Sequence record: OZ346219.1
DNA from: a phage
Strand: one strand, 5' to 3'
DNA: 64,000 nucleotides
Made by a program: the position numbers and the translations under genes. Each line of letters starts with the position of its first letter. Position 1 is the stretch's first letter. Positions 48,919 through 56,931 of the stretch are shown piece after piece. Below the pieces are notes generated by a model. The model worked only from the letters and a program-made list of their open reading frames with translations, ran no database searches and was not told where the DNA came from.

Positions 48919-49085
48919 TATTCGACAACCTCAAAGCATTTATCATCAGGAAGAATAGCCCATTCTATGCCGTATTCATCCTCAACGTAGTAGCAAGTCC
49001 CGTCATGTCGAGCATCATATACATCACCAACAACAAAGCTATCAGCTAGCTCAAAATCTACAGCAACACATTTTAATTTGGTCAT
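48918..49085 (-). CDS. small hypothetical protein (55 aa)
   Basis: promoter cassette and RBS upstream. Confidence 0.4.
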   Translation of the reverse strand: MTKLKCVAVDFELADSFVVGDVYDARHDGTCYYVEDEYGIEWAILPDDKCFEVVE

Positions 49086-49117
49086 AATAAAATCCTCACT
49101 TGTTTTTTGATGGTTGT

Positions 49118-49146
49118 ATTATAGCGGGGATTTCTCCCCGCGTCAA
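49118..49146 (-). promoter_or_regulatory. sigma70-like early promoter cassette with stem-loop (PeSL-like)
   Basis: TTGACG-N17-TATAAT; gcggggatttctccccgc. Confidence 0.55.
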
Positions 49147-49154
49147 CACTTATT

Positions 49155-51398
49155 TTACAGCTTGCAAGATGAGCACTCGCTAGCGTCTTCCGTACCATCT
49201 GCACCATCACGCACGTTAGCGTAATACAGTGTCTTGAGGCCGTAATATTGAGCAAACAACATATCATCTAAAACATCAGCAATATCGACTTTACCAGTCT
49301 TATAAGTGCTTGGATCGTAGGATGTGTTGGAACTAATCGCCTGATCTACAAACTTCTGCATGATCGCTGCCAGTGTCAGATAAGGCTTGTTACCTTTCTT
49401 GATCAGTGTCCAAAGCAGGTCAATAACATCAGCATTATTCTCTACGTTCGGAATGACCTGATTAAATTGCCCTTCTTTCGATCCTTTAACCGATACAATC
49501 CCGCGAGGCGGTTCAATACCGTTTGTGCTGTTAGATACCTGAGAAGACGACTCACACGGCATCAGCGCCGAAAGTGTACTGTTACGAATGCCATATTTTT
49601 TCAGGTCTTCGCGCAGTTCTTCCCAATCCATCTCATACACCGGATCAACCAGTTCATCTACTGTCTTTTTGTACCAGTCGATAGGCAGTTCACCGCGACC
49701 ATAGCGTGTTTCGTGCATCAGTTCGCAAGCACCCTTCTCTTTAGCCAGTCGCACACTAGCCTTAATCAGAGCATATTGCAAGCGTTCAAACGTTTTATGC
49801 GTAAACTCGTTAGCGTCTTCATATGTGAAGAAATTATCTGCTAGATATGATGCAAAGTTAGTAACACCAACACCCAGAGAGCGACGTTTTTTGGCTGTCA
49901 GAGCTTGTTCTACAGGATAATCCTGATAATCTAACAGGTTGTCAAGTGCACGCACCATAACCATAGCAATGCGTTCTACTTCTTCCATATTTTCGATATC
50001 GAAATTACCTAAAACATATGCTGCCAAAGTACATAGGCTAATTTCTGAATCATCACGACCCATCGGTTTAGTAGGCAGTGCAATTTCACAACACAGGTTA
50101 GATTGTTTAATCGGTGCTACATTACGAATAAACGCCCCGTGATTGTTCATGTTGTCTGTGAACGTTGGGTAGATTCGACCAGTGTTAAAACGTTCAATTG
50201 CCACCGCTAAAAACAGGTCTTCGGCTTTAACACGAGTTTTACGAACACTCGGATCTTTTTCCAGTTTTTCGTAAAGTTGGCGGAAACCTTCCTCATCTCG
50301 GAAGTATAGATCCCACAACAAGCCACCCGCAACATCTGGACTAAACAGAGTAATGTAATCCCGTTTAAGGAATCGCTCTACCATCAGGTTATTAATCTGT
50401 ACGCCGTAGTCAAGATGGCGAATGCGGTTATCTTCCACGCCCTTATTGTTCTTTAACACAATCAGACTTTCAAACTCTAAATGCCACATTGGGTAATAGA
50501 GTGTCGCTGCCCCGCCACGAATACCGCCTTGTGAGCATGACTTAACGGCAGTCTGAAAATGTTTCCAGAATGGGATAACGCCAGTATGACGAACTTCACC
50601 ATGCCCGATCTTAGATCCTTCCGCGCGAATCATGCCAGCGTTGATACCGATACCAGCACGCTTGCTAATATACTTAATGATTGCATTTGCGGTTTCATTA
50701 ATACCCTGCAATGAGTCATCACTTTCGATCACCACACACGAACTAAATTGGCGTGTTGGGGTACGCACACCTGCCATAATCGGAGTAGGCAGAGAGATTT
50801 GCTTATTCGCAACCGCATTATAAAAATCAATCACATGTTCAAGTCGATTTTCGGTCTCTTCTTGATGCAAGCACATACCGATCAGCATATACGCAAATTG
50901 CGGTGTTTCGATGATTTTCTTAGTGCTGCGATCCTGAACAAGATATTTCTCTTTTAACTGCATCGCACCAGCATAGGTCATTTTAAAATCAAGTTTATGG
51001 TCGATGAATTTCTCCAGATATTCCACTTCTTCACGGGAATACTTTTGCAGAATTTCGCGATCATATTTTCCGGTTGCAATATTACGCTCAATATGGCTGT
51101 AAAAATCAATCGGTTGGAATTGACCGTATACTGATTTGCGAAGCGCGAACATTGCAAGGTTACTTGCTACATATTGATAATCGGGTGTTTCTACAGTAAT
51201 GTTATCTGCTGCGACCTTAATCAATACTTTCTGGATATCGTTGGTAGACATACCTTCTGTCAGAAGTGGTTCAACCATATCAAACAATTCATATGGATCA
51301 ACGTTATGACCTTCGGCTGCCGCTTCCAGAATTTTCATTACTTTTTCTTTTTCAAAAGGAACAGTCAGACCGGAAGACTTAACAACATTTTTAATCAT
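49155..51398 (-). CDS. nrdA: ribonucleotide reductase large subunit NrdA
   Basis: 747 aa; N-terminal ATP-cone, class I RNR core, C-terminal CSSC. Confidence 0.92.
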   Translation of the reverse strand: MIKNVVKSSGLTVPFEKEKVMKILEAAAEGHNVDPYELFDMVEPLLTEGMSTNDIQKVLIKVAADNITVETPDYQYVASNLAMFALRKSVYGQFQPIDFYSHIERNIATGKYDREILQKYSREEVEYLEKFIDHKLDFKMTYAGAMQLKEKYLVQDRSTKKIIETPQFAYMLIGMCLHQEETENRLEHVIDFYNAVANKQISLPTPIMAGVRTPTRQFSSCVVIESDDSLQGINETANAIIKYISKRAGIGINAGMIRAEGSKIGHGEVRHTGVIPFWKHFQTAVKSCSQGGIRGGAATLYYPMWHLEFESLIVLKNNKGVEDNRIRHLDYGVQINNLMVERFLKRDYITLFSPDVAGGLLWDLYFRDEEGFRQLYEKLEKDPSVRKTRVKAEDLFLAVAIERFNTGRIYPTFTDNMNNHGAFIRNVAPIKQSNLCCEIALPTKPMGRDDSEISLCTLAAYVLGNFDIENMEEVERIAMVMVRALDNLLDYQDYPVEQALTAKKRRSLGVGVTNFASYLADNFFTYEDANEFTHKTFERLQYALIKASVRLAKEKGACELMHETRYGRGELPIDWYKKTVDELVDPVYEMDWEELREDLKKYGIRNSTLSALMPCESSSQVSNSTNGIEPPRGIVSVKGSKEGQFNQVIPNVENNADVIDLLWTLIKKGNKPYLTLAAIMQKFVDQAISSNTSYDPSTYKTGKVDIADVLDDMLFAQYYGLKTLYYANVRDGADGTEDASECSSCKL

Positions 51399-51466
51399 AT
51401 TACCTCACTTCATATTTTAGCAGGAACAAGTTTATCCTCCATATTGGGGGCTTTCGCCCCCTTTGT

Positions 51467-52699
51467 TTATACTGCCATTTGAGCGGTGATTGCTGGATGG
51501 CTTTGATAGTTGTGAATTTTAAAGTCTTTCGGAGTCTTTGTCAATACCTCATCTAAAGATTTAAATTCCGGCAACTCAATCGTTGGTTTATCAAACGGAA
51601 CACGGCTTAACTGTTCCATAACTTGATCAAAATGGTTTTTGTAAATGTGAGTATCTCCACCAGAGAAAATCAGTTCTCCTACCTCAAGATCACACATTTT
51701 CGCTATGATGTGAGTTAACAGCGCATAGCTGGCGACGTTAAAGGGCAAGCCTAAAAAGCTGTCTACGCTTCTCTGAAACCACATACAAGACAGTTTACCT
51801 TCATTGACGTAGAATTGCACGAAAGGATGACATACACCCAATACAGCATTATGTGTTCCTTGTACGTTCCATGAGTCAATAATGATCCGGCGATCCGTTG
51901 GATTGTTTTTAATTTGTTCAATCACGTTTTGTAACTGGTCTTCCCAAATCTTCGGGCGATAGACATATTCTTCATCGTCTTTAGTGCTCGATGTGTCTAC
52001 GTCCATACTAGCAAAGATCGTGGTATCTGGTGCTAAAATATCCCCACCCAGATAATCACTATCAAGCAGATAACCGAAATAACCATCATCTACCCATTCC
52101 TGGAATCCCCACAAGCAATATGCATCATTAACAAAATTAGATTGAGTCTTCCAGTGGTCTGCTACTAAGAATAGATTATACTCAGAATCAAACTCTTCAT
52201 AACGCATACCACGCCAGATAGCACATAAACGGTCTTCTGTTTCATTGGTTGGCGTAAAGTCTTCTACCCACGGGTGCTTAAATGTATGTGCATATTTGCT
52301 CTTAACGCGCTTAATTTTGATTTCACCGTGTGGATGAATCGGTTTGCGTCGCCATGCCATACCATACATATTGCCGACATTATAACCATTGAATCGCAAA
52401 GGATTCTTTTCTTTCATATCAAGACAGTTGCCGCGCCAAATGTCGAAGGCTTCTTCGTCAAACTTACCGCGTGTAATTTCCTGTAAGCGACGGCGGTCAA
52501 GTGATCCCTCCATAAACCATAGCAATTCGCCAATTACAGAGGCTGTAGCCATCTTTTTAGTGGTTAGTAAGGGGAAACCCTTGCTTAAATCAATTCGCAT
52601 CTCTGCGCCGAATTTAGAGAGCGTACCTACCCCCGTGCGGTCTTCACGAGGCCAGCCATTATCAAGAACATCACGCAATAGTTTCAAATATTCTTTCAT
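51467..52699 (-). CDS. td: thymidylate synthase with ~120-aa internal insertion
   Basis: 410 aa; DRTGVGT, RRIIIDSWN, catalytic CH, FQRSVDSFLGLPFNVASYALL, GGDTHIY match ThyA; extra segment between WRR and DQLQNVI. Confidence 0.85.
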   Translation of the reverse strand: MKEYLKLLRDVLDNGWPREDRTGVGTLSKFGAEMRIDLSKGFPLLTTKKMATASVIGELLWFMEGSLDRRRLQEITRGKFDEEAFDIWRGNCLDMKEKNPLRFNGYNVGNMYGMAWRRKPIHPHGEIKIKRVKSKYAHTFKHPWVEDFTPTNETEDRLCAIWRGMRYEEFDSEYNLFLVADHWKTQSNFVNDAYCLWGFQEWVDDGYFGYLLDSDYLGGDILAPDTTIFASMDVDTSSTKDDEEYVYRPKIWEDQLQNVIEQIKNNPTDRRIIIDSWNVQGTHNAVLGVCHPFVQFYVNEGKLSCMWFQRSVDSFLGLPFNVASYALLTHIIAKMCDLEVGELIFSGGDTHIYKNHFDQVMEQLSRVPFDKPTIELPEFKSLDEVLTKTPKDFKIHNYQSHPAITAQMAV

Positions 52700-52940
52700 C
52701 CCACTTCACCTTTTTCTTATTGATTGCTTTCTTACGCAGTTTTGCTACTGTCTCGTCAATGTCTATAAAGATAACACCACGGTCGAATACAGTAGCAGGT
52801 CTTGAGATATCGCTATTTTCTTGCACAGGAAGCCATGATGCGCTCGCTTCATCATAGAGATATTGTAAACCGTAATAATCTACGGCTACTGCGTAGTTTT
52901 CACTGGTAGCTGACCATAATTGAATAATACCGACTTTCAT
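52671..52940 (-). CDS. hypothetical protein (89 aa from MKVGIIQ)
   Basis: ORF; overlaps td start. Confidence 0.4.
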   Translation of the reverse strand: MKVGIIQLWSATSENYAVAVDYYGLQYLYDEASASWLPVQENSDISRPATVFDRGVIFIDIDETVAKLRKKAINKKKVKWDERIFETIA

Positions 52941-53032
52941 TATTGCTCCCGTCCACAATGTAAACACCGACTACCAGCAAACATCAAAGATTCACCACAA
53001 TGTTTGCACTCATAATCTGTCAGAATTTTCAT
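52940..53032 (-). CDS. tiny zinc-ribbon protein (30 aa)
   Basis: MKILTDYECKHCGESLMFAGSRCLHCGREQ; two CxxC pairs. Confidence 0.3.
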   Translation of the reverse strand: MKILTDYECKHCGESLMFAGSRCLHCGREQ

Positions 53033-53033
53033 G

Positions 53034-53603
53034 TTACGCCTTCTTACGTTCTAAAATTTGTTCGCTGATCAGGTAATTATCAAGGAAGTGATTATGTTCT
53101 TCTTTGGTTACAAAGTCAAAATATAATTCCTGAATCATTTCCTTAGAGATACCAACATCATATTCAAATGGATCGTTGACCCCTGAACGTTGAACATACG
53201 TTAACACAATACGGTCCGCAAAGTCAACCGCTTTTTCAATCAGGGAAGGTCCGCCGATAACACTTACCAAACCTTGCGTTTTCTCCAGGACTTTTAACAG
53301 ATCCTTTAATTCAATTCCAGTATACACATTAGGCTGGTCGCCGTTTTTGGCTTTCGGTGTCGGCTTGCTGGCATCGGTACTAATAACCACATTAAGACGA
53401 CCTTCCAGTGCTTTAGGCAGACTTTCAAAGGTATTACGTCCCATTACAACAGCCGCAAGTTCAACATCTCCCATAGTGCGCATTTTAAAGTTTTCCATGT
53501 CCTTTTTGATTGGACGCCCCCACGGTAAACCGCCTTTAAAACCAAAAGCCCAATTTTCATCTGACATTTTAGTGTCACCAATCGCAAATACACATTGAAT
53601 CAT
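53034..53603 (-). CDS. frd: dihydrofolate reductase
   Basis: 189 aa; AFG..GGLPWGR, VIGGPSL as in T4 Frd/DHFR. Confidence 0.88.
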   Translation of the reverse strand: MIQCVFAIGDTKMSDENWAFGFKGGLPWGRPIKKDMENFKMRTMGDVELAAVVMGRNTFESLPKALEGRLNVVISTDASKPTPKAKNGDQPNVYTGIELKDLLKVLEKTQGLVSVIGGPSLIEKAVDFADRIVLTYVQRSGVNDPFEYDVGISKEMIQELYFDFVTKEEHNHFLDNYLISEQILERKKA

Positions 53604-53618
53604 AATATAAATCTCCCA

Positions 53619-53948
53619 TCAAATCAGTTTGAAATAGTTTTCGTTTACATTTTCTTCTGTGATTGCTGTCTTAAATTCTTGACCGTTATCCGGTGTGATG
53701 AAATAACGGTCAGAATAATCACGAAAACGTTTTAAGTGAGATACCCCAACATTAACACCATTTTCCCAGAAACGAAAGGTAATCATTTTTGGTTCATATC
53801 GATAATCGCTGGTTAACACAGTACCATCCCCGCGACGGGCTTCATAAACCGTAATACATTCACGATTAGCGGCTTTAAGGCATTCTTCAATAGTGCCGCA
53901 CGAGATAATACTTACTTTTTCATCTACGATTTGTTCTACAGTCCACAT
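53619..53948 (-). CDS. hypothetical protein (109 aa)
   Basis: start set at MWTVEQ after promoter cassette (track ORF starts 53981). Confidence 0.5.
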   Translation of the reverse strand: MWTVEQIVDEKVSIISCGTIEECLKAANRECITVYEARRGDGTVLTSDYRYEPKMITFRFWENGVNVGVSHLKRFRDYSDRYFITPDNGQEFKTAITEENVNENYFKLI

Positions 53949-53979
53949 AATATAATACTCTCTTTGTTTCGATATGTGC

Positions 53980-54007
53980 ATTATACACTATTGCGTTACG
54001 CTGTCAA
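53980..54007 (-). promoter_or_regulatory. sigma70-like early promoter cassette (PeSL-like)
   Basis: TTGACA-N16-TATAAT. Confidence 0.5.
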
Positions 54008-55180
54008 CTCTTTTTCAAAAGATTTTACAATATACATGATAGTGCTCAATTCAGACGGCGCTACTGTCTCTGTGTAGCCGTCCGGCATATCTTCTTTTGA
54101 GATATAGGAAGTTTTACCTTTCATAGCTTCCTTGATCTTGTTCTCTAATTCTAAGATCTTTTGACCATCTTGTAAAGTCAATTCATAAAAGATCTCGTGG
54201 TCGAACTGAGATTTACTGCTTTGTTGTTTTAGTCTTTTGGTGGTATTAGAATTTGTGACCCCAAATTTTACCCCGATTAATAAATGCTCTTTTATTAATT
54301 TTTGAATATACAGAGTTCCTTTTTTTAATGGATTGTACCCATATTTTGCACATTTAGGACATCGAGTTCCGTTCTGAAAATCAGTTATTCTAGGACTAAA
54401 TCCATGTCCATGATCACATAACAACTTTAATCTTGTATTCACACCTTTCCATTCATCTACAAAACCATTACATGTTATATTTTCTTCAACGAAAATTGGT
54501 TTAAGTCTTTCAAGATATTCTTCTTTTGAACGAGCATAGTTTTTTGCACACTTAAAACAACGTCTTCCCGCTTGAAAACTAGATATAATTGGATTAAATT
54601 CATGACCATACTCACACAATAAATTCATTTTTGTTTTGTTGCCGTTCCATTCACCAATAAATCCGTTAAAAATTATGTTCTCTTTTATGAAAATTGGTTT
54701 AAATCTTTCAAGATATTCTTCTTTTGATAAAGCATAATTATGTGCGCATTTAGGACATCGAGTCCCTCTCCGAAAATTTGTTATTGTCGGTGCAAATTCG
54801 TGTCCTTCACAACACACTAAATCTAACTTTGTGAATACACCTTTCCATTCATCTACAAAACCATTACATGTTATATTTTCTTCAACGAAAATTGGTTTAA
54901 GTCTTTCAAGATATTCTTCTTTTGATAAGGAATAATTATGTGCGCATCTAGGGCAACGTTTACCTTTTTGAAAATCTGATATTCTTGGTGTAAATTCATG
55001 TCCTTCACAACACACCAAACCCAATTTTGTTACGTTGCCTTTCCACTCACCAACAAATCCATTAAATACGATATTTTCTTTTTCGAAAATTGGTTTAAGT
55101 CTTTCGTAATATTCCGTAGGACTAATCGAGTTGTATTTTTTCTTAACCCATTCAATCTCATGAGCTTGACGTACTAACAT
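53996..55180 (-). CDS. four-repeat zinc-finger protein with T5orf172/GIY-YIG-like C-terminal domain
   Basis: 394 aa; 4 x ~66-aa repeats (SKEEYLERLKPIF.EENI.CNGFVDEWKG..TKL.L.C..GHEF.P.I..F..G.RCPKCA.NY); C-terminal GTLYIQKL...IGVKFGVTN...TKRLKQ. Confidence 0.6.
   Translation of the reverse strand: MLVRQAHEIEWVKKKYNSISPTEYYERLKPIFEKENIVFNGFVGEWKGNVTKLGLVCCEGHEFTPRISDFQKGKRCPRCAHNYSLSKEEYLERLKPIFVEENITCNGFVDEWKGVFTKLDLVCCEGHEFAPTITNFRRGTRCPKCAHNYALSKEEYLERFKPIFIKENIIFNGFIGEWNGNKTKMNLLCEYGHEFNPIISSFQAGRRCFKCAKNYARSKEEYLERLKPIFVEENITCNGFVDEWKGVNTRLKLLCDHGHGFSPRITDFQNGTRCPKCAKYGYNPLKKGTLYIQKLIKEHLLIGVKFGVTNSNTTKRLKQQSSKSQFDHEIFYELTLQDGQKILELENKIKEAMKGKTSYISKEDMPDGYTETVAPSELSTIMYIVKSFEKELTA
54325..55126 (-). 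repeat. four tandem ~200-bp coding repeats
   Basis: recurring gaaaattggtttaagtctttcaagatattcttcttttga near 54490, 54700, 54890, 55085. Confidence 0.7.
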
Positions 55181-55209
55181 ATTTTATCCTCCGTTGTTTC
55201 GATGTGTGC

Positions 55210-55237
55210 ATTATACATTACAGCATCAGCATGTCAA
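55210..55237 (-). promoter_or_regulatory. sigma70-like early promoter cassette (PeSL-like)
   Basis: TTGACA-N16-TATAAT. Confidence 0.5.
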
Positions 55238-55262
55238 TACATTTTCATAAAATTTTAGGCAA

Positions 55263-55289
55263 TAAAAAAAGCCTCCCCGAAGGAAGGCT
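55263..55289 (-). terminator. rho-independent terminator (leftward) after gene 32
   Basis: A-run + agcctccccgaaggaaggct. Confidence 0.55.
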
Positions 55290-55299
55290 TTAAAATTCA

Positions 55300-56274
55300 T
55301 TACATCCCTAACAGAGCGTCAAGATCATCCAGATCAGAAGCGGAGGAAGTACCGCCACCCAGGTCCAGAGATGCCATCAGATCATCAGCGGAAGAATCTA
55401 ACGCCGTGCTAGCTGCGTTAATACCAACTACAGTGCTAGCTGCGGTAGTACCAGCGTCGAATGCATTCATCTGTGCGTCAAAATCATCAAGCTGGCTGTT
55501 AATCGCTGCCGCAGCACTGGAAGCCGCCGCACCAGCTACCATAGAAACGCCCATAGTTTTCTTAAATTTGGTTTCCAGTTCATCGAACGGTTTAAACTGG
55601 CTAGGCGCTACAATCTCACTCAGATCAACCATGTTTTCCATCAGATATTTCTGATATGCTTCGTCTTCAATTTTCGGAAGCTGTGATTGCTGCATGAAAC
55701 GAGAATCGTCATAGTTCTGGTGTTTATCAACCTTCTTAGCTTTCAGGAGGAAGTTAGCACCGGAGAACACACAAGTTACATCTACCGGAACTTCGCCCAT
55801 GTCGGTATTCACGTTCACCATTGCAACGATCTTATCATAAATTTTCTGACCGAAGCGGAATTTGAATACCTTACCTTCATTTTCTGGTGCTTGAGGATCT
55901 TTCAGTACCAGAATATTTGCGTAGTAAGAGGCTTTACGCTTAATCAGTTGCCATTCTGTTTTATCGGTATTGTACAGGTCTTTTTCGTTAATATATTTGC
56001 ACACAGGGCAAGAATCAAAATCACCGTGGGTGCTTGAGCAGTTTTCCCAATACCATTTACCATTAACTTTGAAGGAATGGTTTACCAGTTTCACAATCGG
56101 CAGACCGTCTTCTGTCTTAGACGGCAGGAAGCGAATCAGGGCTTCACCGTTACCTGCTGCATCAGTCTTAATCTTCCACTCTTTCGGATCTTCTTTGGAG
56201 AAACCGTTGCCACCTTTCAGTGCGGCCAGTTGAGCTTGCAGTTTGGAAGAATCTTGACGACGAAACATGTTCAT
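55300..56274 (-). CDS. 32: single-stranded DNA-binding protein gp32
   Basis: 324 aa; [49 protein letters not shown], acidic C-terminus as in T4 gp32. Confidence 0.93.
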
Positions 56275-56334
56275 AATTATACCTCTTTATACATTAACTA
56301 TTGATTAATTTACGTTTTATACTATATCAGATAC

Positions 56335-56931
56335 TTAATTGCTTGTCAATACTTTATCAATTATATCTAACAGTTTTGGCTTTCTATTTTCAAATTCTAA
56401 CATCTCTTCGGGAGAAATGTCAACTACTTCTGTTTTGTTGAAAAAGTTTGGGTCTATAGCATCAGCAACAAAGTTTCTCGCAAGTGCTGCCGCTTTCTCA
56501 TGGACATATATTCCCAAATATATCAACTTCTTTCTTTCGACCTGAATATTGGCAACATATTTACCATCTCGTTTATAAAGACTAACACCGATATATTCAG
56601 ACGATCGACCTTTCTGTTTACCCATATTTCTTGAGTTTTGTTGCTCGTTCGCATCTCTCAAGTTTTCAATCCGATTATCTGTTATAATTCGGTTAACATG
56701 GTCAACGTATTTTGGCATGTATCCATGATGCATAAAGAAAATTATTCTATGCTCTTTATGATGTTTACCATCGATACACACCAATCTGTATCCATGACTA
56801 GGATTAACTCCACCCGCTCTAGATCCGACTTTATGCTTTCGGTTTGTCGATATCTTGCGAATCAGCTTACCGTTATCATATTTAAAGAGTTCATGACAAC
56901 GAGCATACAATTCAGGATCATATGTTTTCAC
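56335..56931 (-). CDS. HNH homing-endonuclease-like protein with AP2 DNA-binding domain
   Basis: 198 aa; HHKEHRIIFFMHHGYMPKYVDHVNR...DNRIENL (HNH) and EYIGVSLYKRDGKYVANIQ (AP2-like). Confidence 0.65.
   Translation of the reverse strand: MKTYDPELYARCHELFKYDNGKLIRKISTNRKHKVGSRAGGVNPSHGYRLVCIDGKHHKEHRIIFFMHHGYMPKYVDHVNRIITDNRIENLRDANEQQNSRNMGKQKGRSSEYIGVSLYKRDGKYVANIQVERKKLIYLGIYVHEKAAALARNFVADAIDPNFFNKTEVVDISPEEMLEFENRKPKLLDIIDKVLTSN

What the first reader, a model, noticed from the sequence alone, without database searches (positions are those of the whole stretch)
51467..52699. Thymidylate synthase with a ~120-aa insertion in the small domain
The 410-aa protein aligns with ThyA/Td over both ends, with conserved DRTGVGT, RRIIIDSWN, catalytic Cys-His, QRS.D, PFNVASY (Asn retained, so dUMP-type specificity) and GGDTHIY. 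About 120 extra residues (KPIHPHGEIKIKRV … DEEYVYRPKIWE) lie between the WRR and DQLQNVIEQI segments, at a site known to be variable in ThyA. The reading frame is continuous, so this is not the td intron known from T4, and there are no intein motifs. The insert could be a novel domain, or the enzyme could be a divergent dUMP-modifying paralog.
Basis: partly seen in the sequence, partly recalled or inferred. Interest (0 to 1): 0.55.

Follow-up and report, generated by a model that had tools for sequence, protein, structure and literature searches.

The report
Thymidylate synthase carrying a decayed homing-endonuclease domain
This is the ordinary thymidylate synthase gene of an RB49-like coliphage, and its extra ~125 residues are the folded but degenerate remnant of a phage homing-endonuclease-type module that sits in frame and unspliced; fuller copies of the module still appear to move between the thymidylate synthase genes of other phages.

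Summary
A 410-aa thymidylate synthase (TS) ORF lies on the minus strand at 51467-52699. It has 136 residues between R117 and D254, where E. coli and T4-like TS have 10-11.

The window is a Krischvirus (RB49-like) genome. The gene is the annotated td, lying between frd and nrdA, and all about 59 Krischvirus records carry the insert.

All TS catalytic motifs are intact. There is no intron, no intein and no Pfam domain in the insert.

The insert is homologous to a very large family of phage proteins that has no Pfam model. PHROGs label the family "HNH endonuclease", and its free-standing members sit in classic homing-endonuclease positions.

- **Long forms.** About 250-aa versions occupy the same TS site in at least 81 diverse TS clusters and in jumbo phages.
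- **Transfer.** In Asteriusvirus UE-S1 the insert plus flanking td sequence was imported as a cassette. Sister phages such as PBECO4 lack it.
- **The window's copy.** It is a reduced core that AlphaFold2 predicts to fold confidently.
  - It keeps only 13 of 32 family-conserved positions.
  - It has lost the invariant polar residues and both terminal parts.
  - It is strongly acidic.
  - Its dN/dS is 0.15-0.39, against 0.01-0.04 for the TS core.

Best reading: a working TS carrying a tolerated fossil of an in-frame, non-splicing homing element. Nuclease activity is untested for any family member.

The parts
51467..52699 (-). td gene: 410-aa thymidylate synthase, with the stop codon at 51467-51469
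   Evidence: ORF listing. PF00303 at 1e-84. TIGR03284 at 283 bits. 99.8-100% identical to td of RB49 and FL38.
52349..52699 (-). TS N-terminal segment, residues 1-117. It includes DRTGVGT (R21) and GNMYGMAWR. The 35 residues just before the insert carry the 'insert-associated' flank signature NC.D....P.RFNG.N.GNMYG..WR.
   Evidence: Alignment to E. coli TS residues 1-82. Alignment A1 of insert-bearing and insert-less TS.
51941..52348 (-). The in-frame insert, residues 118-253 (136 aa; net gain about 125 aa over E. coli or T4-like TS)
   Evidence: Boundaries from A1. No Pfam hit. AF2 insert-only model has pLDDT 93.1 and pTM 0.85. An HMM built from 69 non-TS family members hits it at 37.6 bits, E 9e-14, while 200 shuffles reach at most 2.3 bits.
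52304..52345 (-). N-terminal connecting strand of the insert (KPIHPHGEIKIKRV, residues 119-132). It is basic and is predicted to pair with the C-terminal strand as a two-stranded beta-ribbon stalk.
   Evidence: DSSP strands E3-15 and E130-139 in the insert-only model. The segment is conserved in all insert-bearing TS as PHG....ERK.
51983..52276 (-). Degenerate core of the homing-endonuclease-family module, residues 142-239.
- The helical part includes IWRGMRYE. This was W..M..RCY in the family, and the Cys and Tyr are lost.
- LWGFQEWVD is retained.
- The hairpin reads LLDSDY...LAPDTTIF. This was LDKD...YSPDTCIF, and the Lys, Tyr, Ser and Cys are lost.
- The following helix, which carries the invariant Asn, is missing.
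   Evidence: HMM alignment and conservation table give 13/32 conserved positions kept, against a median of 30/32 in free-standing members and 26/32 in long TS inserts. Net charge -14/-15, pI 4.05.
51941..51967 (-). C-terminal connecting strand of the insert (YVYRPKIWE, residues 245-253)
   Evidence: Strand E130-139 in the model. Conserved as V.RP.I..DQ in all insert-bearing TS.
51470..51940 (-). TS C-terminal segment, residues 254-410. It contains DQLQNVIEQI, RRIIIDSWN, the catalytic Cys-His (GVCHPF), QRSVD, PFNVASY, GGDTHIY and the C-terminal MAV.
   Evidence: Alignment to E. coli TS residues 110-264, 165 bits. Motif coordinates.
53034..53603 (-). frd (dihydrofolate reductase), upstream neighbour and functional partner of TS
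   Evidence: PF00186 at 5.7e-22. Annotated frd in Phi1.
49155..51398 (-). nrdA (ribonucleotide reductase large subunit), downstream neighbour
   Evidence: 747-aa ORF. Annotated nrdA in Phi1, G2248 and SSG23. The same synteny holds in the metagenomic relative L013.

Best explanation
The gene is the functional dTMP (thymidylate) synthase of a Krischvirus (RB49-like T4-type coliphage). It methylates dUMP with methylene-tetrahydrofolate, and the DHFR encoded next door recycles the dihydrofolate product.

The extra 136 residues are not removed at the RNA or protein level. They form an autonomous domain held away from the enzyme's small domain on a two-stranded beta-ribbon stalk.

This domain descends from a phage homing-endonuclease-type gene. 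That family is labelled 'HNH endonuclease' by PHROGs, has no Pfam model, and has not been characterised biochemically as far as I could find. The gene became lodged in frame at this surface site of TS.

In other phages the module is still full length (about 250 aa). There it keeps the family's invariant residues and moves between td alleles together with flanking td sequence.

In the Krischvirus lineage it has decayed:
- The N-terminal beta region and the C-terminal DNA-binding-like region were deleted.
- The invariant polar residues were replaced.
- The surface became strongly acidic.

What remains is a fixed, foldable fossil. Selection mainly keeps it from disturbing the enzyme.

Shown here: homology, decay, fixation, relaxed but purifying selection, and cassette transfer of the long form. 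Inferred, not shown: TS activity, absence of splicing in vivo, and nuclease activity of any family member.
For: **It is a TS.**
- PF00303 at 1e-84, TIGR03284 at 283 bits, and alignment to E. coli TS with all catalytic motifs present.
- frd-td-nrdA synteny.

**The insert is homologous to the homing-endonuclease-like family.**
- By tblastn the insert is 34% identical (E 5e-12) to the insert of the UE-S1 TS, and 31% identical to that of a Vibrio phage D69 TS-like protein.
- The UE-S1 insert matches phrog_2081 at 4e-32, phrog_953 at 7e-25 and phrog_374 at 8e-21, all labelled 'HNH endonuclease'.
- An HMM of 69 non-TS members hits the window protein at 37.6 bits (E 9e-14). Shuffles reach at most 2.3 bits, and insert-less TS give no hit.
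- Foldseek against viral models finds the same TS inserts and small phage proteins.
- The family is very large: 12,030 representative clusters at E<=1e-3.

**Free-standing members sit in homing-endonuclease contexts.**
- One lies between two terminase fragments, after a sub-threshold group I intron hit.
- One lies between two nrdF fragments.
- One lies beside a DNA polymerase gene.

**Decay in the window.**
- It keeps 13/32 conserved positions, against medians of 30 and 26.
- Model columns 1-88 and 190-253 are absent.
- Net charge is -14, pI 4.05, against a median of +2 and pI 8.4 for long inserts.

**Still a folded domain.** pLDDT is 92-93 both in the full-length context and alone.

**Selection.**
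- Insert dN/dS is 0.15-0.39, against 0.012-0.043 for the core.
- The insert is retained in relatives whose TS core is only 62-67% identical to the window's (52-62% over the whole protein), with the same synteny.

**Mobility of the long form.**
- UE-S1 td is 95-98% identical at the nucleotide level to PBECO4 td at both ends but 40-70% in the middle.
- It is 85-98% identical to Klebsiella phage KP13-7 in the middle and 70-77% at the ends.
- At least 19 listed Asteriusvirus relatives match only the td ends (two aligned pieces, about 93.5% identity), as PBECO4 does; PBECO4, the one read in full, has a 309-aa td without the insert.
- Core and insert identities are nearly uncorrelated across 102 insert-bearing TS, rho 0.09. 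For example, UE-S1 versus P0016 is 48% in the core and 70% in the insert.
Against: - No Pfam HNH model matches even the intact members. The family has Lys where HNH enzymes have the catalytic His.
- dN/dS below 1 and retention across deep divergence are also what an exapted, functional domain would show.
- The dN/dS counts are small: 9-12 non-synonymous and 6-13 synonymous changes per pair.
- The UE-S1 mosaic shows recombination of a cassette, not nuclease-driven homing as such.
Confidence: 0.68

Rival explanations
1. The insert is an exapted, functional domain of Krischvirus Td. It might be a protein-protein interaction module (for instance for a T4-type dNTP-synthesising complex), an acidic DNA-mimic surface, or a regulator of TS. 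On this view its endonuclease ancestry is irrelevant to its present role.
For: - It is under purifying selection, with dN/dS 0.15-0.39.
- It is fixed in all about 59 Krischvirus records.
- It is retained with a clade-specific conserved signature (GGDI[LI]APDT, LWGFQEWVD) in relatives 52-62% identical overall, one of them (P0006) confirmed in the same frd-td-nrdA synteny.
- It is confidently predicted to fold.
- It carries a striking net charge of -14.
Against: - The insert evolves about ten times faster than the core in dN/dS.
- The acidity is not conserved within the short-insert clade. Net charge ranges from -14 to -1.
- Other lineages (P0010/P0013, P0020) show independent, different reductions of the same module, as expected for decay.
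- A 4-aa indel segregates within the genus.
- No partner or ligand is indicated by any result.
Confidence: 0.2
2. The window's insert is still an active homing endonuclease expressed as part of Td. It cuts insert-less td alleles of co-infecting phages.
For: - It is homologous to a family found in homing-endonuclease contexts.
- Long-form relatives show cassette transfer.
Against: - It keeps only 13/32 conserved positions.
- All invariant polar residues are replaced: RCY, the Lys of D-K-D, Tyr, Ser, Cys and Asn.
- Both flanking regions present in intact members are deleted.
- Its pI of 4.05 is unsuited to DNA binding.
- There is no presence/absence polymorphism in the genus.
Confidence: 0.03
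3. The protein is not a thymidylate synthase. It is a diverged paralog that makes a modified pyrimidine (a dUMP or dCMP hydroxymethylase type), with the insert contributing new specificity.
For: - TS-family enzymes in phages do include hydroxymethylases.
- Some insert-bearing relatives (Vibrio phage D69, Tenacibaculum phage PTm5) have altered motifs or are annotated as hydroxymethylase.
Against: - The window protein keeps every TS motif, including Cys-His, QRS.D, Asn in PFNVASY, DTHIY and the C-terminal residues.
- It passes the TS equivalog model by a wide margin.
- Its core is 52-54% identical to ordinary T4-like TS.
- It is adjacent to DHFR. From established knowledge, DHFR is needed only when the folate is oxidised, that is, for true TS chemistry.
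Confidence: 0.04
4. The insert is removed, either as a cryptic intein at the protein level or as an intron that happens to be open in frame.
For: - TS genes of phages are known hosts of both introns (T4 td) and inteins (actinophages; bioRxiv 10.1101/2025.01.02.630785).
- Some long forms have a Cys or Ser near the N-terminal junction.
Against: - No Hint or intein Pfam hit in the short or long forms.
- No terminal HN followed by Cys/Ser/Thr. The window has Ile at the position where some long forms have Cys.
- No Rfam group I or group II intron hit in the window or in the UE-S1 and KP13-7 genes.
- The in-frame translation is itself homologous to a protein family and folds confidently together with TS, pTM 0.90.
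Confidence: 0.02

Closest known systems
T4 Td / E. coli ThyA (PF00303, TIGR03284)
   Same: Same enzyme family, catalytic residues and gene neighbourhood (frd-td-nrdA). The core is 52-54% identical to T4-like TS.
   Different: It has 136 residues where these enzymes have 10-11, between W-R and D-Q of the small domain. It has no td intron.
Small-domain inserts of other TS (Lactobacillus casei TS, 316 aa; Asteriusvirus PBECO4 TS, 309 aa)
   Same: The extra residues lie at the same variable surface site (PDB hits 1lca and others; PBECO4 alignment).
   Different: Those inserts are about 40-50 aa and are unrelated to the homing-endonuclease-like module. The window's is about 125 aa and belongs to that family.
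Long-insert TS of jumbo phages UE-S1, KP13-7 and phiKp_21, and of at least 81 metagenomic TS clusters
   Same: Same insertion site, same stalk segments, same flank signatures and a homologous module.
   Different: These are about 250 aa. They keep the N-terminal beta region, the C-terminal region and 26-28 of 32 conserved positions, and they are basic. The window's copy is a 136-aa acidic remnant.
Free-standing and intron-associated phage proteins of PHROG 2081/953/374 ('HNH endonuclease', 'HTH homing endonuclease')
   Same: Homologous module. These give the likely origin of the insert.
   Different: They are separate genes of 175-300 aa, often with AP2-like or other C-terminal DNA-binding parts. 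The window's copy is fused in frame inside an enzyme and is degenerate.
Inteins carrying homing endonucleases in phage TS and other genes
   Same: An in-frame insertion of a selfish, endonuclease-type element into a conserved enzyme. It shows sporadic distribution and disagreement between the phylogenies of insert and host gene.
   Different: There is no Hint splicing domain and no splice-junction residues, so the insert must stay in the mature protein.
ShiLan domain in a mycobacteriophage DNA methylase (PMC11855218)
   Same: A non-intron, non-intein insertion that reads through in frame with its host gene and behaves like a homing element.
   Different: In ShiLan the HNH endonuclease is encoded out of frame within the insertion. 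Here the endonuclease-family module is in the host's own frame and is predicted to fold as a domain of the enzyme.
T4 td group I intron with I-TevI
   Same: A mobile element in td that spreads with co-conversion of flanking exon sequence.
   Different: That is a self-splicing RNA element at a different position with a GIY-YIG enzyme. Here there is no RNA structure and no splicing.
PacI (HNH restriction endonuclease, 3m7k)

Membership tests
Thymidylate synthase ThyA/Td (PF00303; TIGR03284) | Profile match above the curated threshold over both halves of the fold | tested here: met
   PF00303 at 284 bits against a cutoff of 24.3. TIGR03284 at 283 bits against a cutoff of 108.
Thymidylate synthase ThyA/Td (PF00303; TIGR03284) | Catalytic Cys-His, the phosphate-binding arginines (R21, R126', R127', R166 in E. 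coli numbering), Q165/S167/D169, the Asn177 pyrimidine selector and H207/Y209 | tested here: met
   DRTGVGT, DRRIII, GVCHPF, QRSVD, PFNVASY and GGDTHIY align to the E. coli residues.
Thymidylate synthase ThyA/Td (PF00303; TIGR03284) | dUMP + CH2-THF -> dTMP + DHF activity; complementation of thyA | not testable with these tools
   Inferred only. Adjacency to DHFR supports it.
Intein | Hint splicing domain with an N-terminal Cys/Ser/Ala and a C-terminal His-Asn followed by Cys/Ser/Thr | tested here: not met
   No Pfam Hint or intein hit at E<=10 for the short or long inserts. The junctions read WRR|KPIHPH and RPKIWE|DQL.
Group I / group II intron | Conserved ribozyme structure interrupting the coding sequence | tested here: not met
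   No Rfam intron hit at E<=1 in window 49000-56500. The frame is continuous, and its translation is homologous to a protein family.
Phage homing-endonuclease-like family (PHROG 2081/953/374; no Pfam model) | Significant sequence homology to family members that are not TS inserts | tested here: met
   An HMM of 69 non-TS members scores 37.6 bits, E 9e-14, with shuffles at most 2.3 bits. A direct PHROG scan of the short insert gives only E 0.5.
Phage homing-endonuclease-like family (PHROG 2081/953/374; no Pfam model) | Retention of the family's near-invariant residues (G.GY.G, W..M..RCY, W, F, D, L-D-K-D, Y-S..T-C.F, N) and of the N-terminal beta region | tested here: not met
   It keeps 13/32, against a family median of 30/32. 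RCY, the Lys, Tyr, Ser, Cys and Asn are replaced, and model columns 1-88 are absent.
HNH (beta-beta-alpha-metal) endonuclease superfamily | HNH-type Pfam match, with a catalytic His at the end of strand 1 and Asn/His metal ligands | tested here: inconclusive
   - No Pfam HNH hit for the insert, the long inserts or free-standing members.
- The family has Lys where His is expected.
- In the window, the Lys, the Asn and the helix are gone.
Active homing element | Presence/absence polymorphism among close relatives, with co-converted flanks | tested here: not met
   Not met for the window's genus: all about 59 Krischvirus records carry the insert. Met for the long form in Asteriusvirus, comparing UE-S1 with PBECO4 and others.
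Active homing element | Site-specific cleavage of the insert-less allele | not testable with these tools
   No biochemical report on this family was found.

The most novel reading that the evidence does not exclude
The long (about 250-aa) inserts found at this site in many phage TS genes would be a distinct kind of selfish element: a homing endonuclease that needs neither intron nor intein. It is tolerated, and expressed, as a surface domain of the dimeric enzyme it invades. It spreads by cutting insert-less td alleles and being copied in with flanking td sequence. The Krischvirus insert in this window would be its fixed, disarmed descendant, possibly recruited for a new protein-interaction role.
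Probability: 0.3. Interest if true: 0.8.

Novelty: new variant of a known kind. Interest (0 to 1): 0.55.

Why it matters
The gene itself is ordinary and long annotated. The origin of its insert does not appear in the literature I could search.

Selfish endonuclease genes are thought to survive inside essential genes only by splicing themselves out, as introns or inteins. Here a homing-endonuclease-type module sits unspliced in frame inside a core nucleotide-metabolism enzyme.

All stages can be seen in public data. There are intact copies that move laterally as a cassette, several independent partial decays, and a fixed fossil in a well-studied coliphage genus.

This offers a tractable system for two questions, using RB49, UE-S1 and PBECO4 on E. 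coli. How do enzymes tolerate and then absorb mobile-element domains? And is 'spliceless' in-frame homing a real strategy?

It also flags a very large phage protein family, over 12,000 clusters at 50% identity, that has no Pfam model, no solved structure and no biochemical characterisation I could find. Finally, it exposes misannotations such as a TS-family protein labelled 'HNH endonuclease'.

Tried and rejected
- **Word-indexed protein search with the insert alone.** It found only 2 candidates and no hits, although near-identical proteins are in the database. This is a limitation of the index, not evidence of absence.
- **Domain libraries.** Pfam and NCBIfam scans of the insert, the long inserts, free-standing homologs and larger non-TS homologs gave no domain.
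- **Solved structures by sequence.** A profile search of the PDB found nothing.
- **Introns.** Rfam found no intron in the window or in the long-insert td genes.
- **Separate expression of the insert.** I looked for an internal start with a Shine-Dalgarno motif and found none upstream of any internal Met.
- **Hidden out-of-frame endonuclease ORF, as in ShiLan.** Rejected. Only chance-sized ORFs of 41-138 aa overlap the gene in other frames, and the homology lies in the td frame itself.
- **A conserved acidic 'DNA mimic' function.** Weakened, because net charge varies from -14 to -1 within the short-insert clade.
- **Literature.** Four full-text searches found no description of the RB49 td insert or of in-frame unspliced endonuclease modules in TS. 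The RB49 genome paper itself was not held.
Full report
**1. The observation**

The ORF at 51467-52699 is real, lies on the minus strand and encodes 410 aa. It matches Pfam Thymidylat_synt at 1e-84 in two separated stretches. It scores 283 bits against the NCBIfam TS equivalog TIGR03284, whose cutoff is 108. It also aligns to E. coli TS crystal-structure sequences over query residues 1-82 and 254-410.

From the WR motif through DQLxxxxx the protein has 146 residues. Insert-less T4-like TS have 15-21 over the same span. The insert is residues 118-253 (nt 51941-52348), a net gain of about 125 aa. Rfam finds no intron.

**2. Where the window comes from**

The protein is 100% identical to td of Escherichia phage FL38 and 99.8% identical to td of RB49. 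About 59 Krischvirus records carry it at 90% identity or more, and all of them include the insert.

The neighbourhood is gp32 ... frd - small ORF - td - nrdA, as in T4-type phages. The gene is therefore the long-annotated td of the RB49 group.

I found no discussion of its insert in the searchable literature. The 2002 RB49 genome paper was not held.

**3. What the insert is**

It has no Pfam or NCBIfam match. By tblastn, however, it finds the same site of the 517-aa TS of jumbo phage UE-S1 (34% identity, E 5e-12). It also finds a 477-aa TS-like protein of Vibrio phage D69 that is annotated 'HNH endonuclease' (sequences).

The 245-aa UE-S1 insert matches three PHROG families labelled 'HNH endonuclease', at 4e-32, 7e-25 and 8e-21. 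It also finds 1,307 phage records by tblastn. Most of these are separate small genes.

The free-standing homologs I inspected lie in textbook homing-endonuclease positions:
- between two fragments of a T7-like terminase gene, after a sub-threshold group I intron hit;
- between two nrdF fragments of a Staphylococcus phage;
- next to the ICP1 DNA polymerase gene.

None of them has a Pfam or NCBIfam domain.

I built a profile from 23 TS inserts and searched 1.84 billion representative proteins. It finds 12,030 clusters at E<=1e-3 and 4,515 at E<=1e-10. Of the top 146 new clusters, 81 are TS-family proteins of 450-680 aa with the module at the same site. The other 65 are not TS, and about 40 of those are proteins of 174-300 aa.

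To avoid circularity I built a second HMM from the 69 non-TS members only. It hits the window protein at 37.6 bits (E 9e-14 for a single sequence). Two hundred shuffles of the insert reach at most 2.3 bits, and insert-less TS give no hit.

**4. Fold**

AlphaFold2 gives pLDDT 92.1 and pTM 0.90 for the whole protein, and pLDDT 93.1 and pTM 0.85 for the insert alone. The predicted elements are:
- two long connecting strands (residues 118-130 and 245-254) that form a ribbon;
- a helical bundle containing IWRGM and LWGFQEWVD;
- a hairpin (residues 210-213 and 228-231).

No solved structure is close:
- Foldseek against the PDB finds nothing.
- A profile search of PDB sequences finds nothing.

Against viral models, the best matches are other TS with inserts and small phage proteins. 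Some of these are named homing endonucleases.

The 'HNH' label is therefore unverified. The family has an invariant L-D-K-D at the end of the first hairpin strand, where HNH enzymes have D-H.

**5. Decay in the window**

Thirty-two model positions are at least 75% conserved among 41 free-standing members.

| Group | Conserved positions kept (of 32) |
|---|---|
| Free-standing members (median) | 30 |
| Long TS inserts (median) | 26 |
| UE-S1 | 28 |
| Window | 13 |
| Window's short-insert relatives | 9-11 |

What survives in the window is the hydrophobic core (W, M, V, W, F, D, W, L, T, F). What is lost is every invariant polar residue: R-C-Y, the Lys of D-K-D, Y-S, Cys and Asn. Also lost are the whole N-terminal beta region, the helix after the hairpin, and the C-terminal region that resembles a DNA-binding element.

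The core of the window's insert has a net charge of -14 to -15 and pI 4.05. Long inserts have a median charge of +2 and pI 8.4, and whole free-standing proteins have a median pI of 9.1.

Other lineages (P0010/P0013, P0016, P0020, P0022) show different partial reductions.

**6. Selection and age**

I compared the window with three Krischvirus td genes. The insert has dN/dS 0.15-0.39, and the TS core 0.012-0.043. The counts are small.

Metagenomic relatives 52-62% identical overall keep the short insert. Their insert identity is 35-58% where core identity is 62-67%. One of them lies on a 169-kb T4-like contig with the same frd-td-nrdA synteny.

The remnant is therefore old, fixed and constrained, but far less constrained than the enzyme.

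**7. The long form moves**

A megablast of the UE-S1 td region shows that Asteriusvirus relatives match at about 93.5% but only in two pieces (PBECO4, 121Q, slurp01 and at least 16 others listed). PBECO4 td is 309 aa, with an unrelated short segment at the site.

| Region of the UE-S1 td alignment | nt identity to PBECO4 | nt identity to KP13-7 (Klebsiella phage, another genus) |
|---|---|---|
| Ends (codons 1-80 and 461-517) | 95-98% | 70-77% |
| Middle (includes the insert) | 40-70% | 85-98% |

UE-S1 td is therefore a recombinant. The insert arrived together with about 30 codons of upstream and about 100 codons of downstream td sequence. This is the pattern left by homing with co-conversion, although recombination alone is not excluded.

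Two further observations fit this:
- All insert-bearing TS share flank signatures that insert-less TS lack.
- Across 102 insert-bearing TS, core and insert identities are almost uncorrelated (rho 0.09). In some pairs the insert is much more similar than the core, for example UE-S1 versus P0016 at 70% against 48%.

There is no intron and no intein feature in these genes, so the module must remain in the mature enzyme.

**8. Interpretation**

The window encodes a normal TS carrying a disarmed, foldable remnant of an in-frame, unspliced homing-endonuclease-type module. I put confidence in this at about 0.68.

The main rival is that the remnant has been recruited for a new function (0.2). The remaining readings are each unlikely:
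- an active endonuclease in the window;
- a modified-pyrimidine synthase;
- a spliced element.

The closest published analogue is the ShiLan domain (PMC11855218). There, however, the HNH enzyme is encoded out of frame. Inteins with endonucleases in actinophage TS differ in having a splicing domain.

**9. Verdict**

The gene is known and ordinary in function. The insert is real, is not a chance feature, and can be explained. Its explanation is a new variant of a known theme, the decay of a mobile element inside a host gene. It also points to a possibly new 'spliceless' mode of homing in the long-form relatives, which needs biochemical testing.

Noticed in passing
window 53996-55180 (-): A 394-aa protein lies between gp32 and frd. 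It has four tandem CapR-homology repeats (PF21817, 1.5e-20), each with CxxC pairs, and a weak C-terminal MUG113/T5orf172 match. It looks like a free-standing T5orf172-type homing endonuclease or a CapR-like DNA-binding protein, two genes upstream of td.
   Followed up: partly
window 52671-52967 (-): A 98-aa ORF between frd and td overlaps the td start by 29 nt. It is annotated as a hypothetical protein (89 aa, ORF236) in Phi1, G2248 and SSG23, and has no Pfam hit.
   Followed up: partly
L002:2455-4008 (UE-S1) vs L011:856-1785 (PBECO4) vs L012:926-2479 (KP13-7): UE-S1 td is a mosaic. Its ends are Asteriusvirus-like (95-98% nt identity to PBECO4). A central cassette of about 1.1 kb, which includes the 245-aa insert, is Alcyoneusvirus-like (85-98% to KP13-7). 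This is presence/absence polymorphism of the long insert among close relatives.
   Followed up: yes
L001:3638-5071 (Vibrio phage D69): The gene annotated 'HNH endonuclease' is a 477-aa TS-family protein (PF00303, 1.9e-47) carrying the long insert. Its TS motifs are altered (RETRSGKVRG, SFYNIWSY, DAHTY), so it may be a different pyrimidine-modifying enzyme.
   Followed up: partly
L007:1608-3191 (Tenacibaculum phage PTm5): A 527-aa 'thymidylate synthase and pyrimidine hydroxymethylase' carries the same module at a different point of the small domain, before GAMYGVQW rather than after WR. It also has a second insertion before QRS. This suggests an independent invasion.
   Followed up: no
P0131, P0137, P0167, P0179, P0200, P0231, P0242 and others: Many long-insert TS match the TS query in three pieces, with a further 40-90 residues inserted near TS position about 165-168. 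This is a second variable or invaded site in the same enzymes.
   Followed up: no
L003:1247-1480 and 1507-2043 (Yersinia phage fPS-85): The free-standing homolog g045 (178 aa) lies between two terminase-gene fragments. It directly follows a sub-threshold group I intron match (RF00028, 26.5 bits, E 0.003).
   Followed up: partly
whole family: This is a phage protein family of over 12,000 clusters at 50% identity. It has near-invariant motifs G.GY.G, W..M..RCY and L-D-K-D...Y-S..T-C.F...N. It has no Pfam or NCBIfam model, no solved structure, and no biochemical characterisation that I could find.
   Followed up: partly
The word-indexed protein search returned no hit for the 155-aa insert query, although a 99%-identical protein (P0001) is in the same database. 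Negative results from that tool with short or unusual queries should not be read as absence.
   Followed up: no
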